Assembly (NCBI GenBank): GCA_964572155.1
Contig: CAZNDZ010000001.1
Location: 271,300-335,299, forward strand
Direction of reading: 5' to 3'
Source of the DNA: an uncultured Planctomycetales bacterium
GTDB lineage: Bacteria; Omnitrophota; Gorgyraeia; Zapsychrales; Fredricksoniimonadaceae
DNA length: 64,000 nt
Both the position numbers and the translations under genes were made by a program. Position 1 is the stretch's first letter; each line of letters opens with the position of its first letter. Of the stretch, positions 7,097 to 49,196 are shown in pieces. The notes below the pieces were generated by a model. It was not told where the DNA came from. It did not search any database and worked only from the letters and a program-made list of their open reading frames with translations.

Positions 7097-7131
7097 ACGG
7101 CAAAGCAGCGACGTAAAAATATAAAAATTAC

Positions 7132-7206: not shown

Positions 7207-7266
7207 GTCTTCGTCAAATTGCTTTCGCGTTTGACTACGACTGGCTTCGCCAGAAAAATTTTGGAA

Positions 7267-36200: not shown

Positions 36201-36720
36201 TAAACAAAAAGATTTTGAATTAAAAAGAGAGTTGCTAAAGTTAGGCGCACATCATGAAGAGGGCACAACACCTGCAGGCGATGAGTCGTACATTAAAGTG
36301 TTTGATGCGATGGGCAAGGAAGCCGTTTTTGTTGAATATTACATTGTAAATGGTCTAGATGAGCATGAGGGCGGGAGATTAAAAGATAAGAATACTGTAG
36401 AATACACGAAGATCACCGTCAATAAAGAAAGCCCAAATGGCCAAAAGATTTTAAAGCTCATTGAGGATTATGTGAAGCATTTAAATGATGCTGCGATGGT
36501 TTCTAAAGATATTGTGAATACGACACGCAATGAAAATAATGTGGGCGGTATCGAGCTTAATCGGAAAGATTTGAATTTGAATGTTACAAAAGAAGGGCAG
36601 GGGTTGCAGTTTGAGATGGATCCTGTTTTGTTGGAAGAGTTGAAGTCAGATAATTTTGGTGGGTTTAGACCGACGGTGTTGAGCATCACACCATTGAGGG
36701 CAAGCCCTGCATTGAATTAA
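33214..36720 (+). CDS. Giant secreted protein A (1168 aa). It has a signal peptide, a conserved N-domain (shared with B), a variable core and a conserved ~50-aa C-terminal module.
   Basis: A long uninterrupted ORF with signal peptide MVSKRSILSAAILISFLFTTIIPANRVFA. Residues ~30-340 are ~60% identical to protein B. The last ~50 aa align with B's C-terminus. Confidence 0.8.
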   Translation: MVSKRSILSAAILISFLFTTIIPANRVFALESTLLTLPKPGTMVAVSQPLVPVMLKGLQINPKNPLIVDFLVSKGDEVLGQAQYYKEIETLARYFLASMAIPEDQLWVNLSPFEKDKIITDPLSQTEMGQNMLAQDYLLKQLTASMIYPEKSLGKEFWSRIYEQAKNKTGNANIPVNTFNKVWILADTANAVEKGNTVMITDAHLKVMLEEDYLAAKKHDVVSNNENSRIIRELIIPELEKEVNTGKNFAPLRQIFNAFVLSVWYKQNLKQSILNQVYADKTKLGGIEAKDRQAKQKIYERYIQAYKKGVFNYIREDKTQGVSQPRKYFSGGEVISAQHVKFTRDAAMFAEALTKPLDRARVEFDAAMRSDDRGNFLSVIDNANTDNLPEAAVAILEQRAKDITTSVITKNVIEETQSLGIPVNIRVKEIADQDNVYNAENIIQNGYIIEYSNDINREKGEGDAVIYVTSSFRKKIADNNGLFYFYVRKILKIYETSGNAGRQKEVDFIKAKIEDEKQRLNGRAKIEKSLALRIPPESFPWVLLEREANALLINPTLSKEQRSPEYFKERVKHIFPNRKFKKIVVPGTVAFEASQEAYRLMKNNANLKLINAMDGVANYADTIPSTVKGMMDRLKEGKPITFAFGASKYNPSSIAHISVTLDGTFAQTGASSYIVNVTLEDVRKPSVKKSAKSRLKLAKADIEGIFKNLFTILDVSEPINGYDLGKYNGEEVFFLIIKMLIPYGLQGPQYYVAGEDHYFIFAPLGNDPQSKFIQWDLMENENVRQHYTFYASEFNGDDWKTYQELVRRQVVLSKNLGPSTEARSFYSDEDSALDRNVKEGIINGIIQAKTKERLLDVMNAASTLPRFDTAGKAVAINLEHDIQKSSVKAVLVLPHRQGARGHDSLRDQLVEEKKLIVMPMEGIKHAVSATTNRKFLEQILTGVFDYNYGYGLTMETMENMNKDPEIFRILVRQSGVKLPLALPLLMPEPSELKDSVKQKDFELKRELLKLGAHHEEGTTPAGDESYIKVFDAMGKEAVFVEYYIVNGLDEHEGGRLKDKNTVEYTKITVNKESPNGQKILKLIEDYVKHLNDAAMVSKDIVNTTRNENNVGGIELNRKDLNLNVTKEGQGLQFEMDPVLLEELKSDNFGGFRPTVLSITPLRASPALN

Positions 36721-36791
36721 GAGGGCAACAACATTGATGTTGTTGCGTATCGATTAACATGGATGTTAAACGTAATTCCAAGGAGTTTTAC

Positions 36792-39700
36792 ATGAACGGA
36801 TGTCGCAAATACATTTCTTTAACGGTGTTGGTCGCTTTCTTTTGCTCGACGTTGACGCCCATTAAAAATGCCAATGCTGCGCCTTTGGTTGCGGGTTTAC
36901 CCACGCCTGGGGCCATGGTCAATTTAAGCGCAACATATACGCCGCTATTGATCAAAGGCTTGCGTGTTCATCCAGAAAATCCATTGGTGTTTGATTTTAT
37001 CGTCGACACAGGCAACTCGCCCATTAAGAGCGACTCTAAAGAATTGCGTGCGCAGTCCGAAAAGCTCATCAAATATTTTTTAGCGACATTAACCATCCCC
37101 GAGAAAGATTTGTGGGTCAACCTTTCTCCTTATGAAAAAGATCGCATCATCGAAGAACCATTAGGCCAAACCGAACTAGGCCGCGACATGTTGGCGCAAG
37201 ATTACTTGCTCAAACAATTAACTGCCTCCTTGGTTTATCCTGAAAAAGAATTAGGTAAGAAATTTTGGGACAAAGTTTATGCTCAAGCCCGCGAACGTTT
37301 TGGTGTTACCAATATTCCGGTCAACACGTTTAACAAAGTTTGGATTTTGCCTGATCAAGCCGACATTTTTGTCCGCAACAACACAGCCTTTGTTGTTAAT
37401 GGTCATTTGAAAGTTATGCTTGAGGAAGATTATTTGGCATCAAAGAAAAACAGCGTCGCTAGCAGCAGTGAGAATTCTCAAATTATTCGGGAGATTATTT
37501 TGCCTGAGATTGAAAAAGAAGTTAATCAAGGTCAAAATTTTGCCCCATTGCGTCAAATCTTTAATTCCATGATTTTAGCGACGTGGTACAAAAAAAGCCT
37601 CAAAGAAGCGCTGCTCAACCAAGTGTATGCAAATAAAGCCAAGATCAATGGCGTCGATGCAGATGATAAAGCGATTAAAGCCAAGATTTACGAACAATAT
37701 TTACAAGCCTATAAGAAGGGTGTTTTTAATTATATCAAAGAGACAAACACATCAAATGGTCAAGTTACCCCCAAGAAGTATTTCTCCGGCGGGGAAGTCT
37801 TTACTAATATCCCTGTAAGTGAAATTTCAAATCCTTCACCCGCAATGATTGCACCAGCAGGCAGTTTATTTTCTGTGAATGCAGCGATGAGTAGCAGCGC
37901 TACTGTTTATAGAGCGGCAAGATTAAATGGTCTTGAGAAAGCTCAAAAAGCTAAAGAAGATGAAATAAATACCACGGTTAATCGTTATTTTGAAGCTTTG
38001 CAATATGCAGAACCACTTCAACAAAGACAGGTAGCTGAATATCAGGGTTTGGCTAGATTTATTTTGGAGGACTTAGATGAGCATGTTGATTCAGCGACGA
38101 GAAAGAAGCTCATTGCAAGCGTCATGACAAACATTGTGGGTTGGGCAAAGCAAGATCTAGATGGGAAATTGGATCCAAATGCAAAAGCTGTTTTTTCTTT
38201 AACAGCGTTTCCAATCATTCATTGGGGACACATCGAGTTGATCTTAAGAACGCTCAATCAAAAACATTTGTCTGGCCTTTCACTAGATCTTAGTGCTCAA
38301 AGTGCGAATAATCCATTAATTGGGGCTTCGTATGAGGACAGGATGTATTTGTTAAAAATCATGTTGCAAAGGTTTAATGGAAGTTTCTCGAGAGACAAAT
38401 TGACAGCGATTAATGAAGATCAGCGTCCAGAAGAAACCGGCGAACGCAGGCTTTTGGAGAGCATCAAAACAGCCAATAAAGGACAAACGCTTTATTATCC
38501 TGTTGGAAAAGGCTATGAGAGTACTATAGAACAATTTGCTGCATGGGCGCGAAATTCAGAGAATGCTAAGATTCTCGAAGAAAGGGATTTAAAACTCGTT
38601 GTTCTCGTCAATAGATTAAGCGAAGCTCAAAAAGTTTCTGCTAAACAAATAGCAAACAGGGTTAGTGTGGAAGTTTTAGATGGTGTTGATTTAGGCATTA
38701 ATAACACCGCCATCAGAGCGGGGCTCGCAAGCACTCCTAATAAGCCAGCAATTAACGGCATATGGTTTATTCCAAAGTCATTGGTTTTGCATCTTGCACG
38801 CATATCTCCAAGCACTTTAGGAAATATCATGGGGATTCCCGACATTCTTAAAGACATTGATCAAAAAGGCATGAGTTCAAGCATTGCTGTCTTAAAAGAC
38901 TTTATTGATAATGTTTATTCTGCACAAGGAAATTACCTGATCACAGAAGAGATTGTAGAGTTGTTCATGCCCAATCTAGCAGATGATAAAAAACAGGTTT
39001 TGGCGGATAAAATGCAATCTCTGTTGGATAAAGCGATGACTCAAATTAATCCAAGAGAAGTTGCTGCCGGCATCAGGTTTTGGGAAGGGTTGGATAAGAC
39101 AACAGTTATTAAGGGTGATTATTGGGCTTTACAAGAAAAGGATGTGTCGGATTTAGACAGCATTTCAGCATCTGAAGGTAAAGAATTGGAAAGCATTGGC
39201 GCCAATACCTTGAGAAATGGCCAAATTGCGGTGATGGGGCTTTGGGCAGGCGCAAGCTCTAGAATGAATACACATGAAGCGCCAGCTGAGATTAAGAAGA
39301 TAGTTAAGGGAAAAGAATTAGGGTCAAAAGCAGTTGTTCCAATTGGACAATATAATGGCGATGTTATTACGTATGCCGATATTGCCGCGTTTAATTTAAA
39401 GCGATTATTTGATCAGATCGATGCAGCTGCTAAAAAGGCAGGCATTGTGTCTAATGTTACTAATAATGTCGTTGGTTTTATGACCAATGATGCGTATCAA
39501 TCAGAACATGATGCAATGTTTATAGCGCATCAAAATTATGGCATGAAGAATCCCATACATTCATTCAGACAGCGCTTAGGTCCTATTTTTCAAGCACGTC
39601 CAATTGATGTTGAGAAATATTTTGGAGAAGAAAATAAACAAACATTTAAAAATGAAGAAGAGCGAAGTGCTTGGAGACAGAAAAAAGAAAGAGCTTTGAA

Positions 39701-42140
39701 AATTGCAGGAGAGTCAAGTTTACGCATTGATTCTAGGGGAGACGAGAGCGCTGTTATTGTCCCTGAAGATAGACAGCCGTTAGGGCATGGAGAATTTCTA
39801 ATGCAGCTTATTGAGTCTGGGGAAATCATAAGACTTATTGATCAAGGGATTAGATTTGTCTCTATTAGAAATGTAGATAACTATGCAGCAAAGTATGACA
39901 GTATGTGGCTTCGGACGATAGGGTATGCCGTTAAGAACAATCTCGACTTTTTGATAGAGAATTCATTGCGTGTTCCAGGACAAAAAGGTGGGGTCGGTGT
40001 CGGTACACCTAACGGACATGTTATCGGAGAAGATCCAATTCTGAATGCGGATATTGATAAAACAACAGATCGGCCCAAAGTTCCATCTACTTCAGGAAAA
40101 TGGATGAATAATGCCGTTGGTATTGCAAGCATACCTTACATTTTGCAATTTTTTAAGCAAGAGGGACAAAGTGATGCTGAATTAATTGATGAGTTAAGAA
40201 ATGCAAACGCAGAACAGCGTGCTGCGATTGCCGATCGAGGCAGAAAACTACTTCCAAAAATTTACGACGTTAAACCTGGAAAGTCTTCCGACGAGAAGTA
40301 TAAGGGCGGCTTAACAAGTAAGGGTGAAACAAATCTTTGGACATCTACAATTGTTTCGGGAAAAGACAAGAAGATTGCAGTTGTTGGTGTCAGAGGCATT
40401 GGGCATTTTGATTTAAATGCTTTTAAAGCAGCAACAGCTGAACAAAAAATTGAGATGTTAAGAAGAGTTCGTTTTATGGCAACGAAACAGTGGGATGTTC
40501 CAGAATCATCAAGGGTTAAATTAAAGAAAGAATTAGAAACATTGTTGGGCAGAGAAATGACAGAAGAAGAAGCGGGCTTAAGATTGGAAAGTTACGAAGG
40601 AAATAAGCCTCTCGCAGACCCAATGATAAAATATATTATGGAAGCCCCCTTAGTTGACGAAAATATTTTCCAAGGCATGAAAGATGATCCTGCAATGTCA
40701 GGCCAAGTTGGGCGAGGTGAGGATCAATTGCAGCAGAAGTTATTCACTACAGAACAAATGGGTGCTGGTGAAGCGGCTTTAGTAGCAACCTTGAATCAAA
40801 AGCCATTGACAATTGAGGAGCAGAGATCCTATTTGGAAAAGGCAAGAAATGCGTTCTTTAGTGAAGTTCAAGCAGTGCCTGAAATTATGAGTGGTATGCA
40901 AGATGCGTTTAAGCGATTTCATATTACTAGCATCACATTTGAAAGTGCTAGACAAGATCAACTCCCAAGAAATTTAGAGGCGTTGAAGAATCAACTAAAT
41001 GTTATTAAGAACACAGCTGTGCAATTGATGCAGAAGGCAGCGCAAGATAAGATCAATACGCTTCTTCCTATTTTGGTACAAACGGATAAGTTTGGAAGAA
41101 AGAAAATTGAGAATCTTCAAGTGTTACAAATAGAACTTAACGCATTAAAGAATTCTAACGTCAGTGCAGATCAACAATTTGATGCGTTAAAAATCATTTT
41201 TAATAAACTCAAAGCATTAGATCAGGCGATGACCGTTGCAGAGCTTAATCGTATTAATGTTTTGTATCCCAGCGACGAGAGCGTTAGGATGCTTGATAAG
41301 ATTAAAGAATCAGATATTGTGTCTTTGGGATTAGTAAATTCAGATGAGGATATAGAAGCCCCAGAAAAAGCGCGTGGATTTTTAAATGGCGAGTTTTCAG
41401 AGCAAGATCTTCAAAATATAACAACTGTTCAAAGAGGAACAGAAATATTCCAGTTTCTTGAAAAAGTAGGATTCTTAGTGCGTGTAAATGGCCATGCGAT
41501 TTCAAGCCATAGGAGTCAACTTGAATTAAGAAGTTTCATAGAAATGAACTTTCCAGAGAACTTAAATGTTGTTGATTTCTTCAATCAATTAAGAAGGCCT
41601 TCGGTAAGATACTATCCTAGAATGCCGGAATTATTGGTTGTTAAGAATGCGACTTTTGATGTTATCGCTGGAACTCGGGTTATTCCTGATACAGCATCAA
41701 AGGGCCAGAAAGATTATCCTTTGGGGTATACAAGTGCAGTAAAGGCAATTTACTTTTCCGAAAGATTCCTTGAGCGCATGAAGGATCAGGGCGTAAAGTT
41801 AGACGACCTGCTTGTTTTTGTGAATGCTGGAGAAACTCCCAAAGAGCGAGCGGAAATGTATGCCAAGTATCAAGCTTACAAGAGAATGTTGGCAAATAGA
41901 GACGATCAAGCCCAGTTAGCAAATCCAGGCGGTATTGATCTTAATACGAAGGGTATGAGATCCTCTGTTACGGGGGATAAGATTGATATTCAATTTGATC
42001 CGGCGATGGTTGAGCAGTTTAAACGTGGGGATTTTACGGGTGTTCGACCGGTGATCTTAAATGTGACGCCGCTCACAAGCGTGTTGCCATTATTAGGACT
42101 CGCGCCCCGTCGTGAAGACGATGTTGCATTGGGCGTTTAA
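36792..42140 (+). CDS. Giant secreted protein B (about 1782 aa). It has a signal peptide, the shared N-domain, a UDP-glucose-pyrophosphorylase-like nucleotidyltransferase domain, a helical region and the shared C-terminal module.
   Basis: The start is chosen at ATG 36792, 6 nt after AAGGAG. The track ORF starting at 36759 has no Shine-Dalgarno. Signal peptide is MNGCRKYISLTVLVAFFCSTLTPIKNANA. The nucleotidyltransferase motifs are …QPLGHGEFLMQLIESGEIIRLIDQGIRFVSIRNVDNY… and …QKGGVGVGTPNG…. Confidence 0.8.
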   Translation: MNGCRKYISLTVLVAFFCSTLTPIKNANAAPLVAGLPTPGAMVNLSATYTPLLIKGLRVHPENPLVFDFIVDTGNSPIKSDSKELRAQSEKLIKYFLATLTIPEKDLWVNLSPYEKDRIIEEPLGQTELGRDMLAQDYLLKQLTASLVYPEKELGKKFWDKVYAQARERFGVTNIPVNTFNKVWILPDQADIFVRNNTAFVVNGHLKVMLEEDYLASKKNSVASSSENSQIIREIILPEIEKEVNQGQNFAPLRQIFNSMILATWYKKSLKEALLNQVYANKAKINGVDADDKAIKAKIYEQYLQAYKKGVFNYIKETNTSNGQVTPKKYFSGGEVFTNIPVSEISNPSPAMIAPAGSLFSVNAAMSSSATVYRAARLNGLEKAQKAKEDEINTTVNRYFEALQYAEPLQQRQVAEYQGLARFILEDLDEHVDSATRKKLIASVMTNIVGWAKQDLDGKLDPNAKAVFSLTAFPIIHWGHIELILRTLNQKHLSGLSLDLSAQSANNPLIGASYEDRMYLLKIMLQRFNGSFSRDKLTAINEDQRPEETGERRLLESIKTANKGQTLYYPVGKGYESTIEQFAAWARNSENAKILEERDLKLVVLVNRLSEAQKVSAKQIANRVSVEVLDGVDLGINNTAIRAGLASTPNKPAINGIWFIPKSLVLHLARISPSTLGNIMGIPDILKDIDQKGMSSSIAVLKDFIDNVYSAQGNYLITEEIVELFMPNLADDKKQVLADKMQSLLDKAMTQINPREVAAGIRFWEGLDKTTVIKGDYWALQEKDVSDLDSISASEGKELESIGANTLRNGQIAVMGLWAGASSRMNTHEAPAEIKKIVKGKELGSKAVVPIGQYNGDVITYADIAAFNLKRLFDQIDAAAKKAGIVSNVTNNVVGFMTNDAYQSEHDAMFIAHQNYGMKNPIHSFRQRLGPIFQARPIDVEKYFGEENKQTFKNEEERSAWRQKKERALKIAGESSLRIDSRGDESAVIVPEDRQPLGHGEFLMQLIESGEIIRLIDQGIRFVSIRNVDNYAAKYDSMWLRTIGYAVKNNLDFLIENSLRVPGQKGGVGVGTPNGHVIGEDPILNADIDKTTDRPKVPSTSGKWMNNAVGIASIPYILQFFKQEGQSDAELIDELRNANAEQRAAIADRGRKLLPKIYDVKPGKSSDEKYKGGLTSKGETNLWTSTIVSGKDKKIAVVGVRGIGHFDLNAFKAATAEQKIEMLRRVRFMATKQWDVPESSRVKLKKELETLLGREMTEEEAGLRLESYEGNKPLADPMIKYIMEAPLVDENIFQGMKDDPAMSGQVGRGEDQLQQKLFTTEQMGAGEAALVATLNQKPLTIEEQRSYLEKARNAFFSEVQAVPEIMSGMQDAFKRFHITSITFESARQDQLPRNLEALKNQLNVIKNTAVQLMQKAAQDKINTLLPILVQTDKFGRKKIENLQVLQIELNALKNSNVSADQQFDALKIIFNKLKALDQAMTVAELNRINVLYPSDESVRMLDKIKESDIVSLGLVNSDEDIEAPEKARGFLNGEFSEQDLQNITTVQRGTEIFQFLEKVGFLVRVNGHAISSHRSQLELRSFIEMNFPENLNVVDFFNQLRRPSVRYYPRMPELLVVKNATFDVIAGTRVIPDTASKGQKDYPLGYTSAVKAIYFSERFLERMKDQGVKLDDLLVFVNAGETPKERAEMYAKYQAYKRMLANRDDQAQLANPGGIDLNTKGMRSSVTGDKIDIQFDPAMVEQFKRGDFTGVRPVILNVTPLTSVLPLLGLAPRREDDVALGV

Positions 42141-42181
42141 TTGTATTGAAATGTGCAAGAACACTGGTATATTAAGTCCTT

Positions 42182-43417
42182 ATGAGCGAACAGGCGAAGA
42201 ATAAGAAATTAAATGTTTCATCTGCAGAAGAGTTGAAGATCCTGCGCACCATTGTGGACATTGCGTCCTCCGAGCTCGATCTTGTATTAACCCTTCAGTT
42301 GATTGTTAAAATTGTTACTGAAATTACCGCCGCTGATTCGGTTTTCATTTATCTCTTTGATGATAAGAAAGAAAACTTGGTGCTCATGGCATCCAAGACT
42401 AGCCATAAAAAAGAATTAGGGCAGTTGGAATTAAAGGTGGGCGAAGGTATTACCGGGTGGGTAGCTAAAGAGAACATGCCCGTTGCCATCAAGAGCCATG
42501 CCTATAAAGATCCTCGCTTTAAAGGGTTTGATGTGTTGCCAGAAGATCGCTACGAAGCCTTCCTTTCGGTGCCTATAGTATATAAGGGAAAAGCCATCGG
42601 GGTTGTTAACGTTCAACATAAACGCGAACAAGATTATTCCCAAACAACGGTTAACCTGCTTGAGATGATTGCCAAGCAAGTTGGCGGCGTCATTGATCAT
42701 GCGCGTCTTTTTGAAGAAACCAAGCAAAAAGCGCTGCAGTTTGATTCTTTGGTCAAGGTTAGCCAAAGCATCACCTCCGAACACTATTTAGACGAAATTT
42801 TAAATCTGATTGTGGTTGTGACCGCCGAGATGCTTAACTCTAAGATTTGCTCGATCATGTTGTTAGATGAAAAGGGCACAGAGTTATCGATTAAAGCAAC
42901 ACAATCATTAAGTGTGGACTATAAAAAGAAGCCAAATATTAGCGTAGAAAATTCTCTAACTGGTTCTGTTATAAAGACTAAAGAACCAGCTGTGGTTTAT
43001 GATGTGCAAAAAGAAGACAGGTATGCATATCGAGATCTAGCCTCCAAAGAAGGGTTAACCTCGATGGTGGCCGTTCCCATGATCCTCAAAGATAAAGCCA
43101 TTGGCGTTATCAATGTTTATACCAAGAAACACCATCGCTTCTCAAAAGAAGAGATCAATGTGTTGCAAATGGTTGCCAACCAAGCAGCGGTGGCGGTTGA
43201 AAATACCAAATTGATGGAAGAAGCCCTTAAAGCCAAGGAAGCCTTGGAAACACGCAAGTTAATCGAGCGCGCCAAGGGCATTATCATGAAAATGAACGGC
43301 CTCTCAGAAGACGCGGCCTATAAATTGATTCATAAAAAGAGCATGGATACCTGCCGATCAATGAAAGAAATCGCTGAGTCGATTATCTTAATGTCGGATT
43401 TGCAAAAGGGCATCTAG
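42182..43417 (+). CDS. GAF-GAF-ANTAR RNA-binding antitermination regulator
   Basis: Two GAF domains (…GEGITGWVAKENMPV…; …LTGSVIKTKEPAVVYDV…) and a C-terminal ANTAR helix bundle (…ALETRKLIERAKGIIMKMNGLSEDAAYKLIHKKSMD…). Confidence 0.8.
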   Translation: MSEQAKNKKLNVSSAEELKILRTIVDIASSELDLVLTLQLIVKIVTEITAADSVFIYLFDDKKENLVLMASKTSHKKELGQLELKVGEGITGWVAKENMPVAIKSHAYKDPRFKGFDVLPEDRYEAFLSVPIVYKGKAIGVVNVQHKREQDYSQTTVNLLEMIAKQVGGVIDHARLFEETKQKALQFDSLVKVSQSITSEHYLDEILNLIVVVTAEMLNSKICSIMLLDEKGTELSIKATQSLSVDYKKKPNISVENSLTGSVIKTKEPAVVYDVQKEDRYAYRDLASKEGLTSMVAVPMILKDKAIGVINVYTKKHHRFSKEEINVLQMVANQAAVAVENTKLMEEALKAKEALETRKLIERAKGIIMKMNGLSEDAAYKLIHKKSMDTCRSMKEIAESIILMSDLQKGI

Positions 43418-43437
43418 GGCTACCTTAAAAAATTTTA

Positions 43438-43465
43438 TTGACAAAATCGTTTTGTAGTATATACT
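43438..43465 (+). promoter_or_regulatory. Sigma70-type promoter for the amtB-1 leader: TTGACA, 16-bp spacer, TATACT.
   Basis: TTGACA is at 43438-43443 and TATACT at 43460-43465. Confidence 0.45.
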
Positions 43466-43598
43466 TACAACCGTAGTAAAAAATGAACGTTCGAAGCAAC
43501 GATGTTTCGGGCGATATTAAGGGCAACGTTTACGTCCTCTGACTGGCAAGATATATAAAGCCGCGGGGGATTTTTTGTTTTATACATATAGAAAACAT

Positions 43599-43662
43599 CA
43601 GTGACTGATGTGAAGGGCACAGAGGCTCAATCGTATTATTGAATACAGGTTGGGCTTTTTTT
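43599..43662 (+). promoter_or_regulatory. Leader RNA element: the CAGTGACT motif, a hexaloop hairpin GGGC-ACAGAG-GCTC, and an overlapping intrinsic terminator. This is a putative ANTAR target.
   Basis: The hexaloop hairpin is at 43615-43628. Its 3' arm GCTC is the start of the terminator 5' arm GCUCAAUC (43625-43632). That arm pairs with GGUUGGGC (43648-43655, 6 Watson-Crick pairs and 2 G-U). An inner GTATT/AATAC extension is present. The stem is followed by TTTTTTT at 43656-43662. Confidence 0.5.
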
Positions 43663-43686
43663 ATTGTCAAAATCAAGGAGGTACTT

Positions 43687-43809
43687 ATGGTATCTAAACA
43701 AGCAACTTTGGAACGATTCTTACATGCAATGGGTTTTTGTGTGGCTTTCGCGGTGATCGCGGTGGCGGCTGGCATGTTTTGGGCAGTTGAACATCATATT
43801 TTAGTGTAA
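43687..43809 (+). CDS. Small hydrophobic ORF (40 aa, one TM helix) immediately upstream of amtB-1
   Basis: ATG sits 5 nt after AAGGAGG (43675-43681). The product is MVSKQATLERFLHAMGFCVAFAVIAVAAGMFWAVEHHILV. It is below the 60-aa ORF-track cutoff. Confidence 0.4.
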   Translation: MVSKQATLERFLHAMGFCVAFAVIAVAAGMFWAVEHHILV

Positions 43810-43859
43810 ACAGATAACAAACGTATAAACAATAATAACAAAAACAAAGGAGTCAAGAA

Positions 43860-45095
43860 ATGGACGCAAATCCAATTAATGCCGGAGACACATCATGGGT
43901 TCTGGTCTCAACAGCGCTCGTTATGTTGATGACCCCGGGCTTAGCCTTCTTCTACGGCGGCATGGTCAGACGTAAGAACATTTTAGGTGTTTTAATGCAA
44001 TGTATGATCTGTTTGGCGCTGGTTAGCGTCTTGTGGGTTGTATATGGTTACAGCTTAGCGTTTGGTAAAGGTAATGCGTTTATCGGCGGTTTGGATTGGG
44101 CTATGCTTAAGGATGTTGGTCAAACAGCCAACGCTGATTATGCAGCAACAATTCCTCACCAAGTGTTTATGATCTTCCAAGGCATGTTCGCGGTGATCAC
44201 GCCTGCGCTTATCATTGGTTCTTTCGCAGAGCGCATGAAGTTTTCCGCATTCGTTGTTTTCACCGTTTTATGGTTAACGCTTGTATATTCTCCTATCTGT
44301 CACATGGTTTGGGCTGTTGGTGGTTTAGTCCGCGGTTGGGGTGCACTTGACTTCGCCGGTGGTACTGTTGTTCACATCAACGCAGGTATCGCAGGTTTAA
44401 TCTCTGCCATCTACTTAGGTAAACGTATCGGTACTGAAAAACCTGGTATGCACAATGTGCCTTTCGTTGTTTTGGGTGCAGCATTGCTCTGGTTTGGTTG
44501 GTTTGGTTTCAACGCTGGTTCTGCATTAGCAGCTAACGGTTTAGCTGGTTCTGCATTTGTCGTTACAAACACAGCCGCAGCTGCAGCAGCATTAGCATGG
44601 GCTGTTATGGAATGGATCTTTGCAGGTAAACCAACCATGATCGGTACAGTTTCTGGTGCCGTCGCTGGTTTAGTTGCGATCACTCCTGCAGCAGGTTTCG
44701 TTGATGTGGGCGGAGCGCTTATCATCGGTTTAGTTGTTTCTGTCATCTGCTACATGATGGTTGCTTTTGTGAAGACAAAGTTAGGGTACGATGATACATT
44801 AGATGCATTCGGTGTTCACTGTATCGGCGGTATTTGGGGCGCTTTAGCCACTGGTTTATTTGCTCAAAAGGCTATAAACTCTGCCGGTGCTGATGGTTTG
44901 TTCTATGGTAATCCTGCTCAATTCATCATTCAGATCAAAGCGGTATTGTTTACGGTTGCGTACACAGCCGTTGTCACATGGGTGATCTGTTTCGTGGTTG
45001 ACAAAGTCATGGGCTTGCGTGCTAATGCTGAAGACGAAGTCATGGGCTTGGATTTGAGCCAACATCATGAACGTGCATACACAATTTTAGACTAA
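43860..45095 (+). CDS. amtB: Ammonium transporter (Amt family), copy 1
   Basis: 411 aa with an 11-TM Amt fold and the conserved twin-His region. Confidence 0.9.
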   Translation: MDANPINAGDTSWVLVSTALVMLMTPGLAFFYGGMVRRKNILGVLMQCMICLALVSVLWVVYGYSLAFGKGNAFIGGLDWAMLKDVGQTANADYAATIPHQVFMIFQGMFAVITPALIIGSFAERMKFSAFVVFTVLWLTLVYSPICHMVWAVGGLVRGWGALDFAGGTVVHINAGIAGLISAIYLGKRIGTEKPGMHNVPFVVLGAALLWFGWFGFNAGSALAANGLAGSAFVVTNTAAAAAALAWAVMEWIFAGKPTMIGTVSGAVAGLVAITPAAGFVDVGGALIIGLVVSVICYMMVAFVKTKLGYDDTLDAFGVHCIGGIWGALATGLFAQKAINSAGADGLFYGNPAQFIIQIKAVLFTVAYTAVVTWVICFVVDKVMGLRANAEDEVMGLDLSQHHERAYTILD

Positions 45096-45123
45096 TCTAA
45101 CTTTTTTCACGAAAGGAAAGGCA

Positions 45124-45465
45124 ATGAAATTAATTATCGCAATCATCCAGCCTCATCGCCTCGACGATGTAAAGCGCGAGTTATATGCGGCGGATGTTAA
45201 TTTGATCACCGTATCAGAAGTGTTAGGCCACGGCCGTCAAGTTGGTGTTGACGAATTTTACCGCGGTGTTAAAGAAACAGGTAACTTGTTGCGTAAGATC
45301 CAAATTGAGATCGCGGTCAACGAAGATTTCGTTGAACCATCCATCAAGGCGATCATCAAGGGTGCACGCACAGGTAAAATCGGCGATGGTAAGATCTTCG
45401 TCTTAGATTTACCACGCACCATCCGTATTCGTACGGGCGAAGAAGGCACCAAGGCCATCGGCTAA
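45124..45465 (+). CDS. glnK: Nitrogen regulatory protein P-II (GlnK-like)
   Basis: 113 aa with the P-II fold and T-loop …GHGRQVGVDEFYRGVKE…. Position 51 is Glu rather than Tyr. Confidence 0.9.
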   Translation: MKLIIAIIQPHRLDDVKRELYAADVNLITVSEVLGHGRQVGVDEFYRGVKETGNLLRKIQIEIAVNEDFVEPSIKAIIKGARTGKIGDGKIFVLDLPRTIRIRTGEEGTKAIG

Positions 45466-45474
45466 GTTTGCCGC

Positions 45475-45503
45475 TTGACTGAAAATAAATAACACGATAT
45501 CAT
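45475..45503 (+). promoter_or_regulatory. Sigma70-type promoter for the amtB-2 leader: TTGACT, 17-bp spacer, TATCAT.
   Basis: TTGACT is at 45475-45480 and TATCAT at 45498-45503. Confidence 0.45.
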
Positions 45504-45546
45504 GGCTCGTCTTTATGGGCGATGATGTCTGTAGGGCATAAGCTTT

Positions 45547-45596
45547 GAGGCTTGAGGATTCTGTTAAACATAGAATTCTCAGGCCTCTTTGTTTTT
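45547..45596 (+). terminator. Intrinsic terminator/attenuator within the amtB-2 leader
   Basis: A 16-bp stem GAGGCTTGAGGATTCT/AGAATTCTCAGGCCTC with 2 mismatches or wobbles and a 9-nt loop. It is followed by TTTGTTTTT and lies 80 nt upstream of the amtB-2 ATG. Confidence 0.6.
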
Positions 45597-45675
45597 GTGG
45601 CATTGGTGCCAGCGGTTCCGATGAGGGAAAAGGCGATAATCAAAGGATATATGATGATGCAGGGGAGTTTATATA

Positions 45676-46914
45676 ATGGAAGGCATTTCACAAATCAGCG
45701 CCGGAGATACGGCGTGGGTGCTGGTGTGCGCCGCGTTGGTCTTATTGATGACGCCAGCATTGGGTTTCTTCTATGGAGGGATGGTCCGTCGTAAAAATGT
45801 TTTAGGTATTTTGATGCAATGCATGAGTTGTTTGGCCTTGATTAGTATTTTGTGGGGCATTTATGGCTACAGTTTGGCGTTTGCACCTGGAAATTTGATT
45901 TTTGGTGGGCTTGATTGGTTTATGCTCAAAGGTGTTGGTGTAACACCCAATAGCGACTATGCGCCAACCATACCGCATGCTGCGTTTATGATTTTTCAAT
46001 GCATGTTTGCGGTCATCACCCCCGCAGTCATTGTGGGGTCATACGCAGAACGTGTGAAGTTTTCTGCATTTTTATTGTTCACCGTTTTATGGCTAACCTT
46101 TGTTTATTGCCCTGTCGCGCATATGGCCTGGGGCATGGGCGGACTATTTCGCAACATGGGCATCCTTGATTTTGCCGGCGGCACCGTTGTTGAAATCAAC
46201 TGCGGGATTGCAGGTTTAGTCACCGCATTATTTTTAGGTAAGCGCATCGGCATTAGTCATCCAACATTGCACAATATACCTTTTGTCGTCTTAGGGGCAG
46301 GTTTATTATGGTTTGGGTGGCTTGGCTTTAACGCGGGCTCTGCTCTCTCGGCTAACGGCGTTGCGGTCAATGCCTTTGTCACGACCAATATGGCTGCAGC
46401 CGCAGCCGCCACCAGCTGGGCGATTGTGGAATGGTGTTTGACAGGTAAACCAACCATCTTTGGTGCCGTCACAGGTGCGGTGGCAGGTTTGGTTGCCATC
46501 ACCCCAGCTGCGGGCTTTGTTGATTTTACAGGGGCCTTAATCATTGGCTTTGTTGTGAGCGTCATCAGCTACTTTTTCGTTGGCGCTATCAAGCATAAAT
46601 TCCAATATGATGATTCGCTCGATGCGTTTGGTGTTCATGCAGTGGGTGGTGCATGGGGCATGTTGGCCACAGGCTTATTAGCCACAACAACCGTCAATGC
46701 CGCAGGTGCAAATGGTTTACTAAACGGTAACCCAAAGCAATTTAGCATACAACTCATGTGTGTGATCATGACCATGGTTTATTGTGCGGCGGTTACCTTG
46801 GTGATCTGTTTTGTCGTCGACAAAATGATTGGCATGCGGGTTAATCGTGAGGATGAGGTCATGGGTTTAGACTTAACCCAGCATCATGAAAGAGCTTACA
46901 CCATCTTAGATTAA
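45676..46914 (+). CDS. amtB: Ammonium transporter (Amt family), copy 2
   Basis: 412 aa, about 60% identical to copy 1. Confidence 0.9.
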   Translation: MEGISQISAGDTAWVLVCAALVLLMTPALGFFYGGMVRRKNVLGILMQCMSCLALISILWGIYGYSLAFAPGNLIFGGLDWFMLKGVGVTPNSDYAPTIPHAAFMIFQCMFAVITPAVIVGSYAERVKFSAFLLFTVLWLTFVYCPVAHMAWGMGGLFRNMGILDFAGGTVVEINCGIAGLVTALFLGKRIGISHPTLHNIPFVVLGAGLLWFGWLGFNAGSALSANGVAVNAFVTTNMAAAAAATSWAIVEWCLTGKPTIFGAVTGAVAGLVAITPAAGFVDFTGALIIGFVVSVISYFFVGAIKHKFQYDDSLDAFGVHAVGGAWGMLATGLLATTTVNAAGANGLLNGNPKQFSIQLMCVIMTMVYCAAVTLVICFVVDKMIGMRVNREDEVMGLDLTQHHERAYTILD

Positions 46915-46940
46915 TCGCCTGTTTTAGGTATTAAAAAAAC

Positions 46941-46969
46941 TTGACTTTATGGTCGATTTTCAGTAAAAT
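46941..46969 (+). promoter_or_regulatory. Sigma70-type promoter for the glnN leader: TTGACT, 17-bp spacer, TAAAAT.
   Basis: TTGACT is at 46941-46946 and TAAAAT at 46964-46969. Confidence 0.45.
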
Positions 46970-46970
46970 T

Positions 46971-47046
46971 CAGTACTTAATTTGAGGGCACAGACGTCCT
47001 CCTTGAACCACAATGTTAGTGTGCGCCAAGGAGGACTTTTTATTTT
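46971..47046 (+). promoter_or_regulatory. Leader RNA element: the CAGTACT motif, a hexaloop hairpin GAGGGC-ACAGAC-GTCCTC, and an overlapping intrinsic terminator. This is a putative ANTAR target.
   Basis: The hexaloop hairpin is at 46984-47001. Its 3' arm GTCCTC is the start of the terminator 5' arm GTCCTCCTTG (46996-47005). That arm pairs perfectly with CAAGGAGGAC (47027-47036). The stem is followed by TTTTTATTTT at 47037-47046. The terminator 3' arm contains an AAGGAGG Shine-Dalgarno. Confidence 0.5.
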
Positions 47047-47079
47047 ATGGAATCTAACAACAACCAGGGGGGTCTATGA
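47047..47079 (+). CDS. 10-codon upstream ORF MESNNNQGGL. Its stop overlaps the glnN start codon (ATGA).
   Basis: ATG at 47047 directly follows the terminator T-tract. The stop TGA is at 47077-47079 and overlaps glnN ATG 47076-47078. The only strong Shine-Dalgarno in the area (47028-47034) serves this uORF. Confidence 0.35.
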   Translation: MESNNNQGGL

Positions 47080-49196
47080 GTCAAGCAAGAGAAGAAGTTA
47101 TTCAAGCCTGCAACGATGAAGATTGTGGTTGCGACGCAAATTTCAGCGCAAATTTACCTTCATATTTCGGTCAAAACGTGTTCTCGCTCAAGGTGATGCG
47201 CGAATTCCTTTCACCAAAAGCTTATGCATCCATTGAAAAGACAATTAAAGAAGGCGGCAAGGTAGATCCAGCGATTGCTGATGAAGTTGCCGAAGGCATG
47301 AAGAAATGGGCTATTTCTAAGGGTGCAACCCACTTTACACATTGGTTCCAACCTTTAACAGGTACCACCGCTGAAAAGCATGATTCATTTATCACATGGG
47401 ATGATAAAGGTGGGATTATCTTAAGTTTTGGCGGCAAAGAATTAATCCAAGGTGAACCAGATGCATCTTCTTTCCCATCCGGTGGTTTGCGTGCAACATT
47501 CGAAGCACGTGGTTATACAGGTTGGGATCCAACATCTCCAGCGTTCATCAAAGAAGGTCCAGAAGGCGCCACATTATGTATCCCAACATTCTATATTGGT
47601 TACCATGGTGAAGCGTTAGATAAGAAAACACCATTGCTGCGTTCCATGAATGCCTTATCTAAACAAATTTGCCGCTTGGCTAACTTGTTTAGCATCGACA
47701 CCAAGGGTAAACGTGCATACTGCACCTTAGGGCCAGAACAAGAATATTTTTTGATCGATAAAATTCACTTCGAAGCACGTATGGACTTGGTTCAAACCGG
47801 CCGTACCTTATTCGGTGTAAAACCAGCAAAGCATCAACAACAAGAAGATCATTATTTTGGCGCCATCAAGCCACGCGTCATGGCCTTCATGGAAGATTTA
47901 GACCGCACCTTGTGGGGTTTAGGTATTCCGTCGAAAACACGTCACAATGAAGTCGCCCCTGCGCAATACGAAATGGCTCCAATTTACGAAGATTTAAACA
48001 CGGGCGTTGATCATAACATGATCGCCATGGAAGTCATGCGTCAATTAGCCGATAAGCATGGTTTAGTTTGTTTGCTCCATGAAAAACCATTCGCCGGTGT
48101 TAACGGTTCTGGTAAACATAACAACTGGTCTGTCGTAGGTCCAGATGGCAAGAACTGGTTATATCCTGGTAAAACACCACACGAAAATGCGAAATTCTTA
48201 ACCACCTTATGCGCGATCATCAAAGCTGTCGATACATACGCTGACCTTTTACGCGTCACGGTTGCAACCGCTGGTAACGATCACCGCTTAGGTGCCAACG
48301 AAGCGCCTCCTGCGATTGTTTCAATCTTCTTAGGCGATCAATTATTTGACATCGTCGAGCAAATTGAAAAAGGCGGAGCAAAGACCTCCAAGCAAGGTGG
48401 CGAAATCAACGTGGGCGTAGATGCATTGCCAACATTAAGCAAAGACACCACAGATCGTAACCGCACATCGCCATTTGCGTTTACCGGCGCTAAGTTCGAA
48501 TTCCGCGCTGTTGGTTCAAATCAAAACCCTTCAGCTGCTAACATGGTTTTAAACACCATCGTCGCTGAAGCGATCTCACAAATCTGTGATCAATTAGAAG
48601 CTGATAAGAAAGCCGGCAAGGATTTCAATAAATCCTTACAAGCTGTCTTGCAAGACATCATCAAGAAACATAAACGCGTCCTCTTTAACGGCGACGGCTA
48701 CACCAAAGAATGGCATGCCGAAGCGAAGAAACGTGGTTTACCAAACATGAAAACAACACCAGAAGCCTTGGAAGTTTTAAAGGCTAAGAAGAACATCGAT
48801 GTTTTAGTCAAACATGGTGTTTTATCTGCTGTTGAAGTGGCCTCACGTTATGAAATCAACAAACATGCATACGATACTGTCATCAGCTTAGAAGGCAGCT
48901 GTGCAGCGACGATCGCTCGTACACAATTGATTCCTGCAGCTTTGGAATTCCAAGCCCAATTAAGCGTGGTTAAATCAGCGACACAAAAGAAATTGCAAAA
49001 ACAAGTTTCTGATTTGATCGATGATGCTTTAACGACAGTTGCCGCTTTGGAAGCAGCTGTGGCAAAGCATGATTCTGCTAAAACATCAGCAAACATGTTG
49101 AAATTACGTGAAGCCATCGATGGTTTGGAAGCATTAGTTCCAGCATCCATCTGGCCATTGCCAAGTTATGCTGAAATGTTGTTAATGAACGCATAA
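47076..49196 (+). CDS. glnN: Glutamine synthetase type III (GlnN)
   Basis: 706 aa, the length and architecture of type III GS. The catalytic region is …NGSGKHNNWSV…. Confidence 0.85.
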   Translation: MSQAREEVIQACNDEDCGCDANFSANLPSYFGQNVFSLKVMREFLSPKAYASIEKTIKEGGKVDPAIADEVAEGMKKWAISKGATHFTHWFQPLTGTTAEKHDSFITWDDKGGIILSFGGKELIQGEPDASSFPSGGLRATFEARGYTGWDPTSPAFIKEGPEGATLCIPTFYIGYHGEALDKKTPLLRSMNALSKQICRLANLFSIDTKGKRAYCTLGPEQEYFLIDKIHFEARMDLVQTGRTLFGVKPAKHQQQEDHYFGAIKPRVMAFMEDLDRTLWGLGIPSKTRHNEVAPAQYEMAPIYEDLNTGVDHNMIAMEVMRQLADKHGLVCLLHEKPFAGVNGSGKHNNWSVVGPDGKNWLYPGKTPHENAKFLTTLCAIIKAVDTYADLLRVTVATAGNDHRLGANEAPPAIVSIFLGDQLFDIVEQIEKGGAKTSKQGGEINVGVDALPTLSKDTTDRNRTSPFAFTGAKFEFRAVGSNQNPSAANMVLNTIVAEAISQICDQLEADKKAGKDFNKSLQAVLQDIIKKHKRVLFNGDGYTKEWHAEAKKRGLPNMKTTPEALEVLKAKKNIDVLVKHGVLSAVEVASRYEINKHAYDTVISLEGSCAATIARTQLIPAALEFQAQLSVVKSATQKKLQKQVSDLIDDALTTVAALEAAVAKHDSAKTSANMLKLREAIDGLEALVPASIWPLPSYAEMLLMNA

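What the first reader, a model, noticed from the sequence alone, without database searches (positions are those of the whole stretch)
43418..47079. Nitrogen-gene leaders with a shared bipartite motif and a hexaloop hairpin overlapping an intrinsic terminator, the ANTAR-target architecture
The leaders of amtB-1 and glnN each start from a sigma70-type promoter. Each contains CAGTGACT or CAGTACT, then an 8-9-nt gap, then (A)GGGCACAGA(G/C).

In both, the GGGC…ACAGAG/ACAGAC…GCTC/GTCCTC segment can form a short hairpin with a 6-nt loop that has A at position 1 and G at position 4. The 3' arm of that hairpin is the first 4-6 nt of the 5' arm of a strong intrinsic terminator. The terminator spans 43625-43662 before amtB-1 and 46996-47046 before glnN.

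That is exactly the arrangement used by ANTAR antiterminators, where a hexaloop hairpin competes with the terminator. A GAF-GAF-ANTAR protein is encoded immediately upstream at 42182-43417. The amtB-2 leader (45475-45596) also has a promoter followed by a terminator, but carries only a degenerate AGGGCA.

This predicts a previously undescribed ANTAR-controlled ammonium-assimilation regulon made up of amtB, glnK, amtB and glnN.
Basis: partly seen in the sequence, partly recalled or inferred. Interest (0 to 1): 0.7.

Follow-up and report, generated by a model that had tools for sequence, protein, structure and literature searches.

The report
ANTAR antiterminator hairpins before nitrogen genes
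The leaders of the ammonium-transporter and glutamine-synthetase genes carry a small conserved RNA hairpin that overlaps a transcription terminator. It is very probably the binding site of the RNA-binding (ANTAR) regulator encoded next door, a known type of switch seen here with an unstudied sensor protein in little-known bacterial phyla.

Summary
The core observation is real. The window comes from a Candidatus Omnitrophota bacterium. It encodes a GAF-GAF-ANTAR protein followed by amtB-1, glnK, amtB-2 and glnN.

The leaders carry a hairpin of consensus GGRC-ANNGNN-GYCC(UC), with a hexaloop that has A at position 1 and G at position 4. Its 3' arm forms the base of an intrinsic terminator.

In 80 related loci, a covariance model of this hairpin gives 69 hits, all on the sense strand. 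Of 68 placed hits, 66 lie downstream of the ANTAR gene's stop codon. They sit in front of amtB, glnN and, in Nitrospirota, nadE.

- The "CAGT(G)ACT" half of the proposed bipartite motif is not conserved (0 of 68 related sites).
- Leader 1 holds two tandem attenuators, not one.
- The amtB-2 leader keeps both hairpins, but both loops have lost the A at position 1.

The regulon type is not new. Geobacter GnfR binds CAGGCAANGGCGCC at terminators of glnK and amtB leaders (2010). ANTAR targets before P-II, amtB and glutamine-synthase genes were predicted in 2012.

What is new:
- The regulator architecture: GAF-1 resembles the PtsP GAF domain and GAF-2 resembles the NifA GAF domain.
- The phyla involved.
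- glnN and nadE as targets.
- Frequent sites with a single hairpin.

Verdict: a new member of a known kind.

The parts
42182..43417 (+). Gene for the GAF-GAF-ANTAR protein (411 aa), the proposed antiterminator.
   Evidence: Pfam finds GAF twice (146 bits) and ANTAR at residues 351-402 (74.9 bits). The ANTAR part matches Rv1626, EutV and NasR structures. GAF-1 resembles PtsP/EI-Ntr GAF and GAF-2 resembles NifA GAF. Identity is above 70% across Omnitrophota and about 50% in Nitrospirota.
43438..43465 (+). Promoter-like site of the amtB-1 leader (TTGACA-16-TATACT).
   Evidence: 11 of 12 matches. This is a consensus match only.
43492..43509 (+). P1a, the upstream hexaloop hairpin CGAAGC-AACGAU-GUUUCG (loop 43498-43503, A1 and G4).
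   Evidence: Equivalent hairpins (GC-AUNGAU-GU) occur in the amtB leaders of L001, L004, L005 and L014.
43520..43538 (+). P2a, hairpin AGGGC-AACGUUUAC-GUCCU. The loop is expanded to 9 nt but keeps A1 and G4. Its 3' arm is the base of terminator T1a.
   Evidence: Second-best covariance-model hit in the window (15.6 bits, E = 0.16, 3-nt loop insertion; not among the sequences the model was built from). Orthologous first-tier hairpins have 6-8-nt loops.
43534..43583 (+). T1a, the first intrinsic terminator of leader 1 (stem 43534-43571, then UUUUUUGUUUU).
   Evidence: -13.5 kcal/mol. Enforcing P2a removes the base of the stem.
43595..43611 (+). It may act as a P1 for the second tier, but this is ambiguous.
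   Evidence: -7.2 kcal/mol. A hairpin of different sequence sits at the same place in L001. The CAGT.?ACT sequence itself is absent from 68 related sites.
43615..43628 (+). P2b, hexaloop hairpin GGGC-ACAGAG-GCUC (loop 43619-43624).
   Evidence: 14.2 bits, E = 0.36; this 30-nt window was one of the model's 50 seed sequences, so the match is by construction; -4.5 kcal/mol on its own.
43625..43662 (+). T1b, the second intrinsic terminator of leader 1.
   Evidence: -13.1 kcal/mol. With P2b enforced, the remaining helix no longer abuts the U tract.
43687..43809 (+). Conserved 40-aa membrane-like small ORF with a strong ribosome-binding site, lying between T1b and amtB-1.
   Evidence: Homologous small ORFs occur in L001, L002, L005, L007 and L051. 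No family hit.
43860..45465 (+). amtB-1 (43860-45095) and glnK (45124-45465), the genes controlled by leader 1.
45475..45503 (+). Promoter-like site of the amtB-2 leader.
   Evidence: 10 of 12 matches.
45513..45534 (+). P1c, hairpin UUAUGGGC-GAUGAU-GUCUGUAG. The loop has G rather than A at position 1.
   Evidence: It is positionally homologous to GGGGGC-AUUGAG-GUCUCC in L051.
45540..45553 (+). P2c, hairpin AAGC-UUUGAG-GCUU that overlaps the terminator. The loop has U rather than A at position 1.
   Evidence: It is homologous to GAGC-AAGGAA-GCUC in L051. The covariance model does not detect it.
45547..45597 (+). T2, the terminator of the amtB-2 leader (18-bp stem).
   Evidence: -27.8 kcal/mol.
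45676..46914 (+). amtB-2.
46941..46969 (+). Promoter-like site of the glnN leader.
   Evidence: 10 of 12 matches.
46984..47001 (+). P2d, hexaloop hairpin GAGGGC-ACAGAC-GUCCUC (loop 46990-46995). It is a single hairpin, because there is no room for a P1 between the predicted start site and the hairpin.
   Evidence: Best covariance-model hit in the window (28.5 bits, E = 1.4e-4; this 30-nt window was one of the model's 50 seed sequences, so the match is by construction). Folding energy -8.7 kcal/mol. glnN leaders in L005, L007, L009, L016, L017 and L019 have the same element.
46996..47047 (+). T3, the terminator of the glnN leader (stem 46996-47036, then a U tract).
   Evidence: -20.7 kcal/mol.
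47076..49196 (+). glnN, type III glutamine synthetase.

Best explanation
Each leader is a protein-dependent transcription attenuator of the ANTAR type.

Mechanism:
- Transcription starts at a sigma-70-type promoter and by default stops at a strong intrinsic terminator.
- Just upstream, the RNA can form a weak 4-6-bp hairpin, GGRC-A..G..-GYCC, with a hexaloop that has A at position 1 and G at position 4.
- The 3' arm of that hairpin is the first 4-6 nt of the terminator's 5' arm, so the two structures exclude each other.
- When the GAF-GAF-ANTAR protein encoded immediately upstream is in its active state, its ANTAR domain binds and stabilises the small hairpin, alone or together with an upstream P1 hairpin.
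- The terminator then cannot form, and RNA polymerase reads into amtB-1-glnK or glnN.

Local features:
- Leader 1 has two such attenuators in series, which should make the off state tight and the response steep.
- The amtB-2 leader has the same architecture, but both loops have lost A1. It is probably poorly responsive or unresponsive.

Shown versus inferred:
- Shown: the anatomy, its conservation and its linkage to the ANTAR gene.
- Inferred: protein binding and read-through.
- Inferred from domain similarity only: the signal is low nitrogen status. GAF-1 resembles the glutamine-binding GAF of EI-Ntr, and GAF-2 resembles the NifA GAF, which binds 2-oxoglutarate in Azotobacter (my own knowledge).
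For: 1. A scan that required only a 4-bp stem, an A..G.. loop and an overlapping terminator found 58 sense-strand and 6 antisense hits in 80 loci plus the window. The sense hits converge on GGRC-A(A)NG(R)N-GUCC(UC), which the scan did not ask for.
2. Covariance model R1 gives 69 hits at E<=1 in about 1 Mb, all on the strand of the ANTAR gene. For the 68 placed relative to the ANTAR stop, 2 lie upstream and 66 downstream, 37 of them within 1 kb, although both flanks are equally long.
3. The genes downstream of the hits are amtB, glnN, nadE, the ANTAR gene itself, porin-like genes next to amtB and a PAS histidine kinase. Synteny of ANTAR-amtB-glnK-glnN-GATase-nadE in Omnitrophota and ANTAR-nadE in Nitrospirota is shown.
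4. With the third stem pair left free, the sense-strand excess is almost entirely A-U (36) and G-U (23), against 2 and 4 on the antisense strand. G-U tolerance points to RNA pairing rather than a DNA palindrome.
5. With the stem fixed, loop position 1 is A in 81 of 142 cases and position 4 is G in 101 of 142.
6. P2 alone folds at -4.5 to -8.7 kcal/mol, against -13 to -28 for the terminators. Enforcing P2 removes the terminator base.
7. In 62 of 70 sites a T run follows. In 22 of 70 a second hexaloop hairpin lies within 75 nt upstream, where about 6 are expected.
8. Precedent: A1 and G4 are required for EutV and NasR (PMC3369931). GnfR binds CAGGCAANGGCGCC at terminators of the nifH, glnK and amtB leaders (PMC2995071).
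9. Sensor hint: GAF-1 matches PtsP GAF (PDB 3ci6, 2e-23; NF008283, 2e-41) and GAF-2 matches NifA GAF (TIGR01817, 5.6e-31). The EI-Ntr GAF binds glutamine (PMC4848567).
Against: - There is no experimental evidence for binding, read-through or the signal.
- The seed hairpins were selected for pairing, so the 92% pairing is circular. True compensatory changes are few because the stem is conserved in sequence (8 cells; 14 of 500 shuffles reach that).
- Many sites, including glnN here, have a single hairpin, whereas EutV needs two hairpins with a 5-12-nt linker.
- P2a has a 9-nt loop.
- The amtB-2 hairpins lack A1.
- Only 44 of 78 loci show a hit within 7 kb.
- Only 64 kb of this genome was available, so other ANTAR proteins and genome-wide enrichment could not be checked.
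- An unbiased metagenome pattern scan returned almost only chance coding matches.
Confidence: 0.72

Rival explanations
1. The elements are ANTAR-type or other protein-dependent attenuators, but the effector is not the neighbouring GAF-GAF-ANTAR protein. It could be a GnfR-like REC-ANTAR response regulator or another RNA-binding protein encoded elsewhere in the genome.
For: - The experimentally characterised regulator of the most similar site (CAGGCAANGGCGCC) is a REC-ANTAR protein.
- Only 64 kb of this genome could be inspected.
- 34 of 78 ANTAR loci show no hit nearby.
Against: - The element lies directly downstream of the GAF-GAF-ANTAR gene in at least two phyla (Omnitrophota and Nitrospirota). 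Hits split 66 downstream against 2 upstream, with 37 within 1 kb.
- In L022 the element precedes the ANTAR gene itself.
- No REC-ANTAR gene lies in the window.
Confidence: 0.12
2. GGAC-N6-GTCC is a DNA operator, that is, an inverted repeat bound by a dimeric transcription factor. This would resemble the GGAA-N6-TTCC operators of NrpR (from my own knowledge). The terminators would be unrelated.
For: GGAC/GTCC is a perfect DNA palindrome with a fixed 6-bp spacer, located near promoters of nitrogen genes.
Against: - 23 of 59 A-U/G-U sites have GGGC...GTCC, which is a G-U pair in RNA but a mismatch in a DNA palindrome.
- The spacer is asymmetric (A1, G4), and all 69 model hits are on the transcribed strand.
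- Sites lie +10 to +150 downstream of promoters, often two or three per leader.
- The 3' arm always runs into a terminator stem.
Confidence: 0.04
3. The leader RNAs sense a small molecule directly, as a riboswitch for glutamine or another nitrogen metabolite would, without any protein.
For: Glutamine riboswitches are known upstream of nitrogen genes (my own knowledge). Leader 1 folds better than shuffled sequence (z = -4.2).
Against: - No Rfam family matches, even at E<=10.
- The conserved part is only an approximately 14-nt hairpin with a hexaloop, too small for a ligand pocket.
- The sequence between hairpin and terminator is not conserved.
- The hairpin matches the defined ANTAR recognition features.
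Confidence: 0.04
4. The terminators are constitutive partial attenuators, or ends of upstream transcripts, and the small hairpins are chance or relic sequences with no regulatory role.
For: - Intrinsic terminators are common in intergenic DNA.
- The amtB-2 hairpins are degenerate.
- The two weaker window hits have E-values of only 0.16 and 0.36.
Against: - The hairpin sequence is conserved across phyla while the terminator loops and flanks vary.
- The strand split is 69 to 0.
- The hits are positionally linked to the ANTAR gene and to nitrogen genes.
Confidence: 0.03

Closest known systems
Geobacter sulfurreducens GnfK/GnfR antitermination of nitrogen-fixation and ammonium-assimilation genes (Ueki and Lovley 2010, PMC2995071).
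   Same: - A conserved sequence, CAGGCAANGGCGCC (GGC-AANGGC-GCC, a hexaloop with A1 and G4), lies upstream of and overlapping intrinsic terminators in leaders that include glnK and amtB.
- An ANTAR protein binds it and prevents premature termination under nitrogen limitation.
- The Nitrospirota version found here, AGGAC-AANGGC-GUCC, is nearly the same sequence.
   Different: - GnfR is a REC-ANTAR response regulator activated by the kinase GnfK. The protein here has two GAF domains and no receiver domain.
- The promoters here look sigma-70-like rather than RpoN-dependent.
- The targets include glnN and nadE but no nif genes.
- The phyla are different.
The ANTAR dual-hairpin target RNA defined on EutV, NasR and AmiR (Ramesh et al. 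2012, PMC3369931; ANTAR-RNA structural study, title and abstract only seen here, PMC8934654).
   Same: - Short stems, hexaloops with A1 and G4, and a P2 3' arm that overlaps the terminator.
- Default termination.
- Predicted in 2012 upstream of P-II, ammonium transporters and glutamine/glutamate synthases, sometimes many per genome.
   Different: - About two thirds of the sites here have no recognisable P1 within 75 nt.
- The P2 stem is conserved in sequence (GGRC/GYCC) rather than only in structure.
- Some first-tier loops are expanded to 7-9 nt.
- The regulator is a GAF-GAF one-component protein. This class had no characterised example in 2012, and the 2025 review mentions GAF only when listing ANTAR domain architectures, in the passages I searched.
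NasR/NasT nitrate-responsive antitermination (Klebsiella, Paracoccus, Pseudomonas).
   Same: A one-component or partner-controlled ANTAR protein acts on a leader terminator of nitrogen-assimilation genes. The ANTAR domain here matches the NasR structure 4akk.
   Different: The sensor there is a NIT domain or the NasS partner, the signal is nitrate or nitrite, and the targets are nas/nir operons rather than amtB, glnK and glnN.

Membership tests
ANTAR target RNA (Ramesh et al. 2012 definition) | A short stem of at least 3 bp capped by a hexanucleotide loop. | tested here: met
   P1a 43492-43509, P2b 43615-43628 and P2d 46984-47001 meet it. P2a has a 9-nt loop, and its orthologues have 6-8 nt.
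ANTAR target RNA (Ramesh et al. 2012 definition) | A at loop position 1 and G at loop position 4. | tested here: met
   Met in P1a (AACGAU), P2a (AACG...), P2b (ACAGAG) and P2d (ACAGAC). Across loci with the stem fixed, A1 occurs in 81 of 142 and G4 in 101 of 142. Not met in the amtB-2 leader (GAUGAU, UUUGAG).
ANTAR target RNA (Ramesh et al. 2012 definition) | Two tandem hairpins (P1 and P2) separated by a short linker. | tested here: inconclusive
   Present in leader 1, tier 1 (P1a plus P2a, about 10-nt linker). Ambiguous in tier 2. Absent in the glnN leader. Across sites, 22 of 70 have a second hexaloop hairpin within 75 nt upstream, where about 6 are expected.
ANTAR target RNA (Ramesh et al. 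2012 definition) | The 3' arm of P2 overlaps the 5' arm of an intrinsic terminator. | tested here: met
   A T run follows in 62 of 70 sites.
ANTAR target RNA (Ramesh et al. 2012 definition) | An ANTAR-domain protein is encoded in the same genome. | tested here: met
   PF03861 at 74.9 bits in the gene immediately upstream. Conserved linkage is shown.
ANTAR target RNA (Ramesh et al. 2012 definition) | Specific binding by the ANTAR protein and protein-dependent read-through. | not testable with these tools
   Needs gel shifts, in vitro termination assays or reporters.
GnfR-type regulon (Geobacter) | A conserved CAGGCAANGGCGCC-like site overlapping terminators in nitrogen-gene leaders. | tested here: met
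   The consensus (A)GGRC-AANGRN-GYCC(UC) was compared with the published site. The comparison was by eye, not with Geobacter sequences.
GnfR-type regulon (Geobacter) | The regulator is a REC-ANTAR response regulator phosphorylated by a cognate kinase. | tested here: not met
   The protein has two GAF domains and no receiver domain.
Known structured RNA families (Rfam 15, including glutamine riboswitches) | A match to a curated covariance model. | tested here: not met
   No match in the leaders at gathering score or at E<=10 beyond two chance hits.

The most novel reading that the evidence does not exclude
The GAF-GAF-ANTAR protein may be a one-component sensor of cellular nitrogen status.
- GAF-1 is PtsP-like and could bind glutamine.
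- GAF-2 is NifA-like and could bind 2-oxoglutarate.
- The protein could serve as the main regulator of ammonium assimilation (amtB, glnK, glnN, nadE) across Omnitrophota, Nitrospirota (including nitrite-oxidising Nitrospira) and some Acidobacteriota.
- It would recognise a distinct RNA code: often a single hexaloop hairpin with a sequence-specific GGRC/GYCC stem, used in tandem attenuators.
- In Nitrospirota the same switch would also free a Shine-Dalgarno sequence hidden in the terminator.
Probability: 0.3. Interest if true: 0.65.

Novelty: new member of a known kind. Interest (0 to 1): 0.45.

Why it matters
- It would give the first functional assignment to the widespread but uncharacterised GAF-ANTAR architecture.
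- It offers a concrete, testable model of how Omnitrophota and Nitrospirota control ammonium uptake and assimilation. No description of this system turned up in my literature searches.
- Cultured Nitrospira might make it experimentally accessible, but I did not confirm that any cultured strain carries the gene or the element.
- The high sequence conservation of both the protein (above 70% within a phylum) and the RNA stem suggests a tight protein-RNA code. That code could be used to predict regulons in metagenome-assembled genomes.
- The general principle, ANTAR antitermination of nitrogen genes, is already established, so the advance is incremental rather than conceptual.

Tried and rejected
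1. Rfam at gathering score over the whole window, and at E<=10 over 43400-47100, found nothing relevant.
2. I rejected it as part of the motif.
3. The third exact GGGCACAGA, at 42874 inside the ANTAR coding sequence, has no pairing partner and encodes Gly-Thr-Glu of GAF-2. I treat it as chance.
4. I scanned metagenome contigs with AGGRCAANGANGTCCTC to obtain a regulon unbiased by the ANTAR gene. Of 120 loci, almost all were in-frame coding matches in high-GC DNA (for example ...GKDVL...), and only a handful were real leader elements.
5. Covariation statistics on the seed alignment are weak, and circular for percent paired. I therefore used tests that leave one pair or the loop free.
6. The dual hexaloop hairpins before the large ORF at 36792 are not conserved before the N-terminal paralogues in L004, L019 and L051. 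I left them as a side note.
7. Literature searches for ANTAR together with Nitrospira, Omnitrophota, GAF or ammonium transporter found no description of this system. Several searches were polluted by "Antarctica" or authors named Antar.

Full report
**What is in the window**

Pfam confirms the gene calls:
- 42182-43417 encodes a 411-aa protein with two GAF domains and a C-terminal ANTAR domain (74.9 bits, cut-off 27.3).
- 43860-45095 and 45676-46914 encode ammonium transporters.
- 45124-45465 encodes a P-II protein.
- 47076-49196 encodes a type III glutamine synthetase.
- A glutamine amidotransferase and a glutamine-dependent NAD synthetase (nadE) follow.

Sigma-70-like promoter matches precede each leader, at 43438-43465, 45475-45503 and 46941-46969. 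Relatives of the regulator place the window in Candidatus Omnitrophota.

**Anatomy of the leaders**

The glnN leader:
- It holds one hairpin, GAGGGC-ACAGAC-GUCCUC (46984-47001).
- The 3' arm of that hairpin is the start of the terminator stem 46996-47036, which is followed by a U tract.

It holds two attenuators in series:
- Tier 1 has an upstream hexaloop hairpin P1a (43492-43509, loop AACGAU).
- About 10 nt later comes P2a (AGGGC-AACGUUUAC-GUCCU, 43520-43538). P2a overlaps terminator T1a (43534-43571 plus UUUUUUGUUUU).
- Tier 2 has a 7-bp hairpin at 43595-43611, then P2b (GGGC-ACAGAG-GCUC, 43615-43628). P2b overlaps terminator T1b (43625-43662).
- A 40-codon ORF with a strong ribosome-binding site follows, and then amtB-1.

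The amtB-2 leader has the same plan:
- P1c lies at 45513-45534 and P2c at 45540-45553. P2c overlaps the 18-bp terminator at 45547-45587.
- The loops are GAUGAU and UUUGAG, so A1 is lost in both.
- The orthologous leader in L051 has AUUGAG and AAGGAA at the same places.

The small hairpins are weak on their own (-4.5 to -8.7 kcal/mol) and the terminators are strong (-13 to -28). Enforcing the small hairpin removes the base of the terminator. The default state is therefore termination.

**Is it more than chance?**

I fetched 80 loci encoding relatives of the regulator: Omnitrophota at 64-85% identity, and Nitrospirota, Acidobacteriota and Elusimicrobia at about 47-57%.

A deliberately generic scan asked for any 4-bp stem, an A..G.. 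loop, and a terminator that starts in the 3' arm.
- It gave 58 sense and 6 antisense hits.
- The sense hits converge on a consensus the scan did not demand: (A)GGRC-A(A)NG(R)N-GUCC(UC).

I built a covariance model from 50 of these hairpins (R1).
- In the window, its three best hits are exactly the three P2 elements (28.5, 15.6 and 14.2 bits), and the next hit scores 11.5. The two weaker ones have E-values of 0.16 and 0.36, so they are supported by context rather than by score alone. P2b and P2d were themselves among the 50 seed sequences, so only the P2a hit is independent of the model's construction.
- In the 80 loci it finds 69 hits at E<=1, all on the sense strand.
- Relative to the ANTAR stop codon, 2 hits lie upstream and 66 downstream, 37 of them within 1 kb, although both flanks are 7 kb.

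The downstream genes are amtB, glnN, nadE (the usual neighbour in Nitrospirota), the ANTAR gene itself in one locus, porin-like genes next to amtB, and a PAS histidine kinase.

**RNA structure or DNA site?**

The seeds were chosen for pairing, so the percent-paired figure is circular. Compensatory changes are few because the stem is conserved in sequence.

I therefore fixed the rest of the motif and left one pair free.
- At the third pair, the sense-strand excess is A-U (36) and G-U (23), against 2 and 4 on the antisense strand.
- GGGC...GUCC is a G-U pair in RNA but breaks the DNA palindrome.
- Together with the asymmetric loop and the 69:0 strand bias, this argues for an RNA hairpin and against an operator.

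**One hairpin or two?**

The published ANTAR target is a pair of hexaloop hairpins. Here 22 of 70 sites have a second A..G.. hexaloop hairpin within 75 nt upstream, against about 6 expected. Clear examples occur in Nitrospirota, such as GGGCAAC-AAUGAC-GUUGCC followed by AGGAC-AAUGGC-GUCCU. Many sites, including glnN in this window, have only P2. The Geobacter GnfR site was also described as a single conserved sequence.

CAGTGACT and CAGTACT do lie 8 nt upstream of GGGCACAGA in the two leaders. However, no related site has CAGT.?ACT within 30 nt upstream (0 of 68). In the glnN leader it coincides with the predicted start site. It is not part of the conserved element. The third exact GGGCACAGA, at 42874, is coding sequence without a pairing partner.

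**Mechanism and signal**

The anatomy meets the defining features of ANTAR antitermination (see the membership test). The strongest link to the neighbouring protein is positional conservation across at least two phyla, Omnitrophota and Nitrospirota.

On the signal, only domain similarity is available:
- GAF-1 (residues 18-180) is most similar to the N-terminal GAF of PtsP/EI-Ntr (PDB 3ci6, 2e-23; NF008283, 2e-41). That domain binds glutamine (PMC4848567).
- GAF-2 (residues 186-364) is most similar to the GAF of NifA (TIGR01817, 5.6e-31). That domain binds 2-oxoglutarate in Azotobacter, which I state from my own knowledge.

I infer that low glutamine and/or high 2-oxoglutarate activates RNA binding and read-through into the ammonium-scavenging genes. 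This step is hypothesis.

**Comparison with what is known**

- ANTAR control of nitrogen genes is established. GnfR binds CAGGCAANGGCGCC at terminators in the nifH, glnK and amtB leaders (PMC2995071).
- Ramesh et al. 2012 predicted ANTAR targets before P-II, ammonium-transporter, and glutamine and glutamate synthase genes. They noted that no GAF-ANTAR protein had been characterised (PMC3369931). In the passages I searched, the 2025 review mentions GAF only when listing ANTAR domain architectures.
- In the searchable library I found no description of this system in Omnitrophota or Nitrospirota.

This is therefore a new member of a known kind, with some variant features:
- a GAF-GAF sensor;
- frequent single-hairpin sites with a sequence-conserved stem;
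- tandem attenuators;
- glnN and nadE as targets.

**Limits**

- Nothing here shows binding or regulation.
- Only 64 kb of the genome was available.
- 34 of 78 loci show no hit within 7 kb.
- The attempt at an unbiased regulon through a metagenome pattern scan failed.

Noticed in passing
window 36725-36769: Two tandem hexaloop hairpins, GCAACAAC-AUUGAU-GUUGUUGC and UUAAC-AUGGAU-GUUAA, both with A1 and G4. They have no terminator and lie just 5' of AAGGAG and the ATG at 36792 of the very large ORF. The mechanical ORF start at 36759 lies inside the second loop. This could be a translational ANTAR-type site or chance. It is not seen before the paralogues in L004, L019 and L051.
   Followed up: partly
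window 43687-43809: A 40-aa hydrophobic small ORF with a strong ribosome-binding site lies between the second leader terminator and amtB-1. Similar small ORFs ending in ...GLFWAVE.H... precede amtB in L001, L002, L005, L007 and L051. There is no Pfam or NCBIfam match.
   Followed up: partly
window 45598-45613: A hairpin UGGC-AUUGGU-GCCA (hexaloop with A1 and G4) lies immediately after the U tract of the amtB-2 leader terminator. A similar GGC-AUAGGU-GCC sits at the same place in L051. No terminator follows it.
   Followed up: no
window 47047-47079: A 10-codon upstream ORF, MESNNNQGGL, contains three consecutive Asn codons and one Gln codon. It starts in the U tract of the glnN leader terminator and its stop overlaps the glnN start codon (ATGA). 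It is not present in the glnN leaders of L005 or L007, so it is probably chance.
   Followed up: partly
L042, L045-L047, L049, L056, L058-L062, L065, L070, L073, L079 (about 8260-8400 in each): In Nitrospirota the terminator's U tract runs straight into the nadE start codon. The only Shine-Dalgarno-like sequence (GAGGA) is the 3' arm of the terminator. The same hairpin switch may therefore control both termination and ribosome access.
   Followed up: no
L022 75-104: A consensus hairpin-plus-terminator element lies directly upstream of the GAF-GAF-ANTAR gene itself, suggesting autoregulation in that species. In the window the regulator instead has its own promoter-like site (42146-42173) and no attenuator.
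   Followed up: no
window 42874-42882: A third exact copy of GGGCACAGA lies inside the ANTAR gene, where it codes for Gly-Thr-Glu of GAF-2. No complementary 3' arm follows, so I judge it to be chance.
   Followed up: yes
window 14137-14294 and 6906-7341: A 6S RNA (49.1 bits) and three tRNA genes were found by Rfam. They are unrelated to the finding.
   Followed up: no
window 33214-42140: Two very large ORFs (1168 aa and about 1782 aa) lie upstream of the regulator and have almost no Pfam signal. N-terminal paralogues recur next to the ANTAR/amtB loci in L004, L019 and L051.
   Followed up: no
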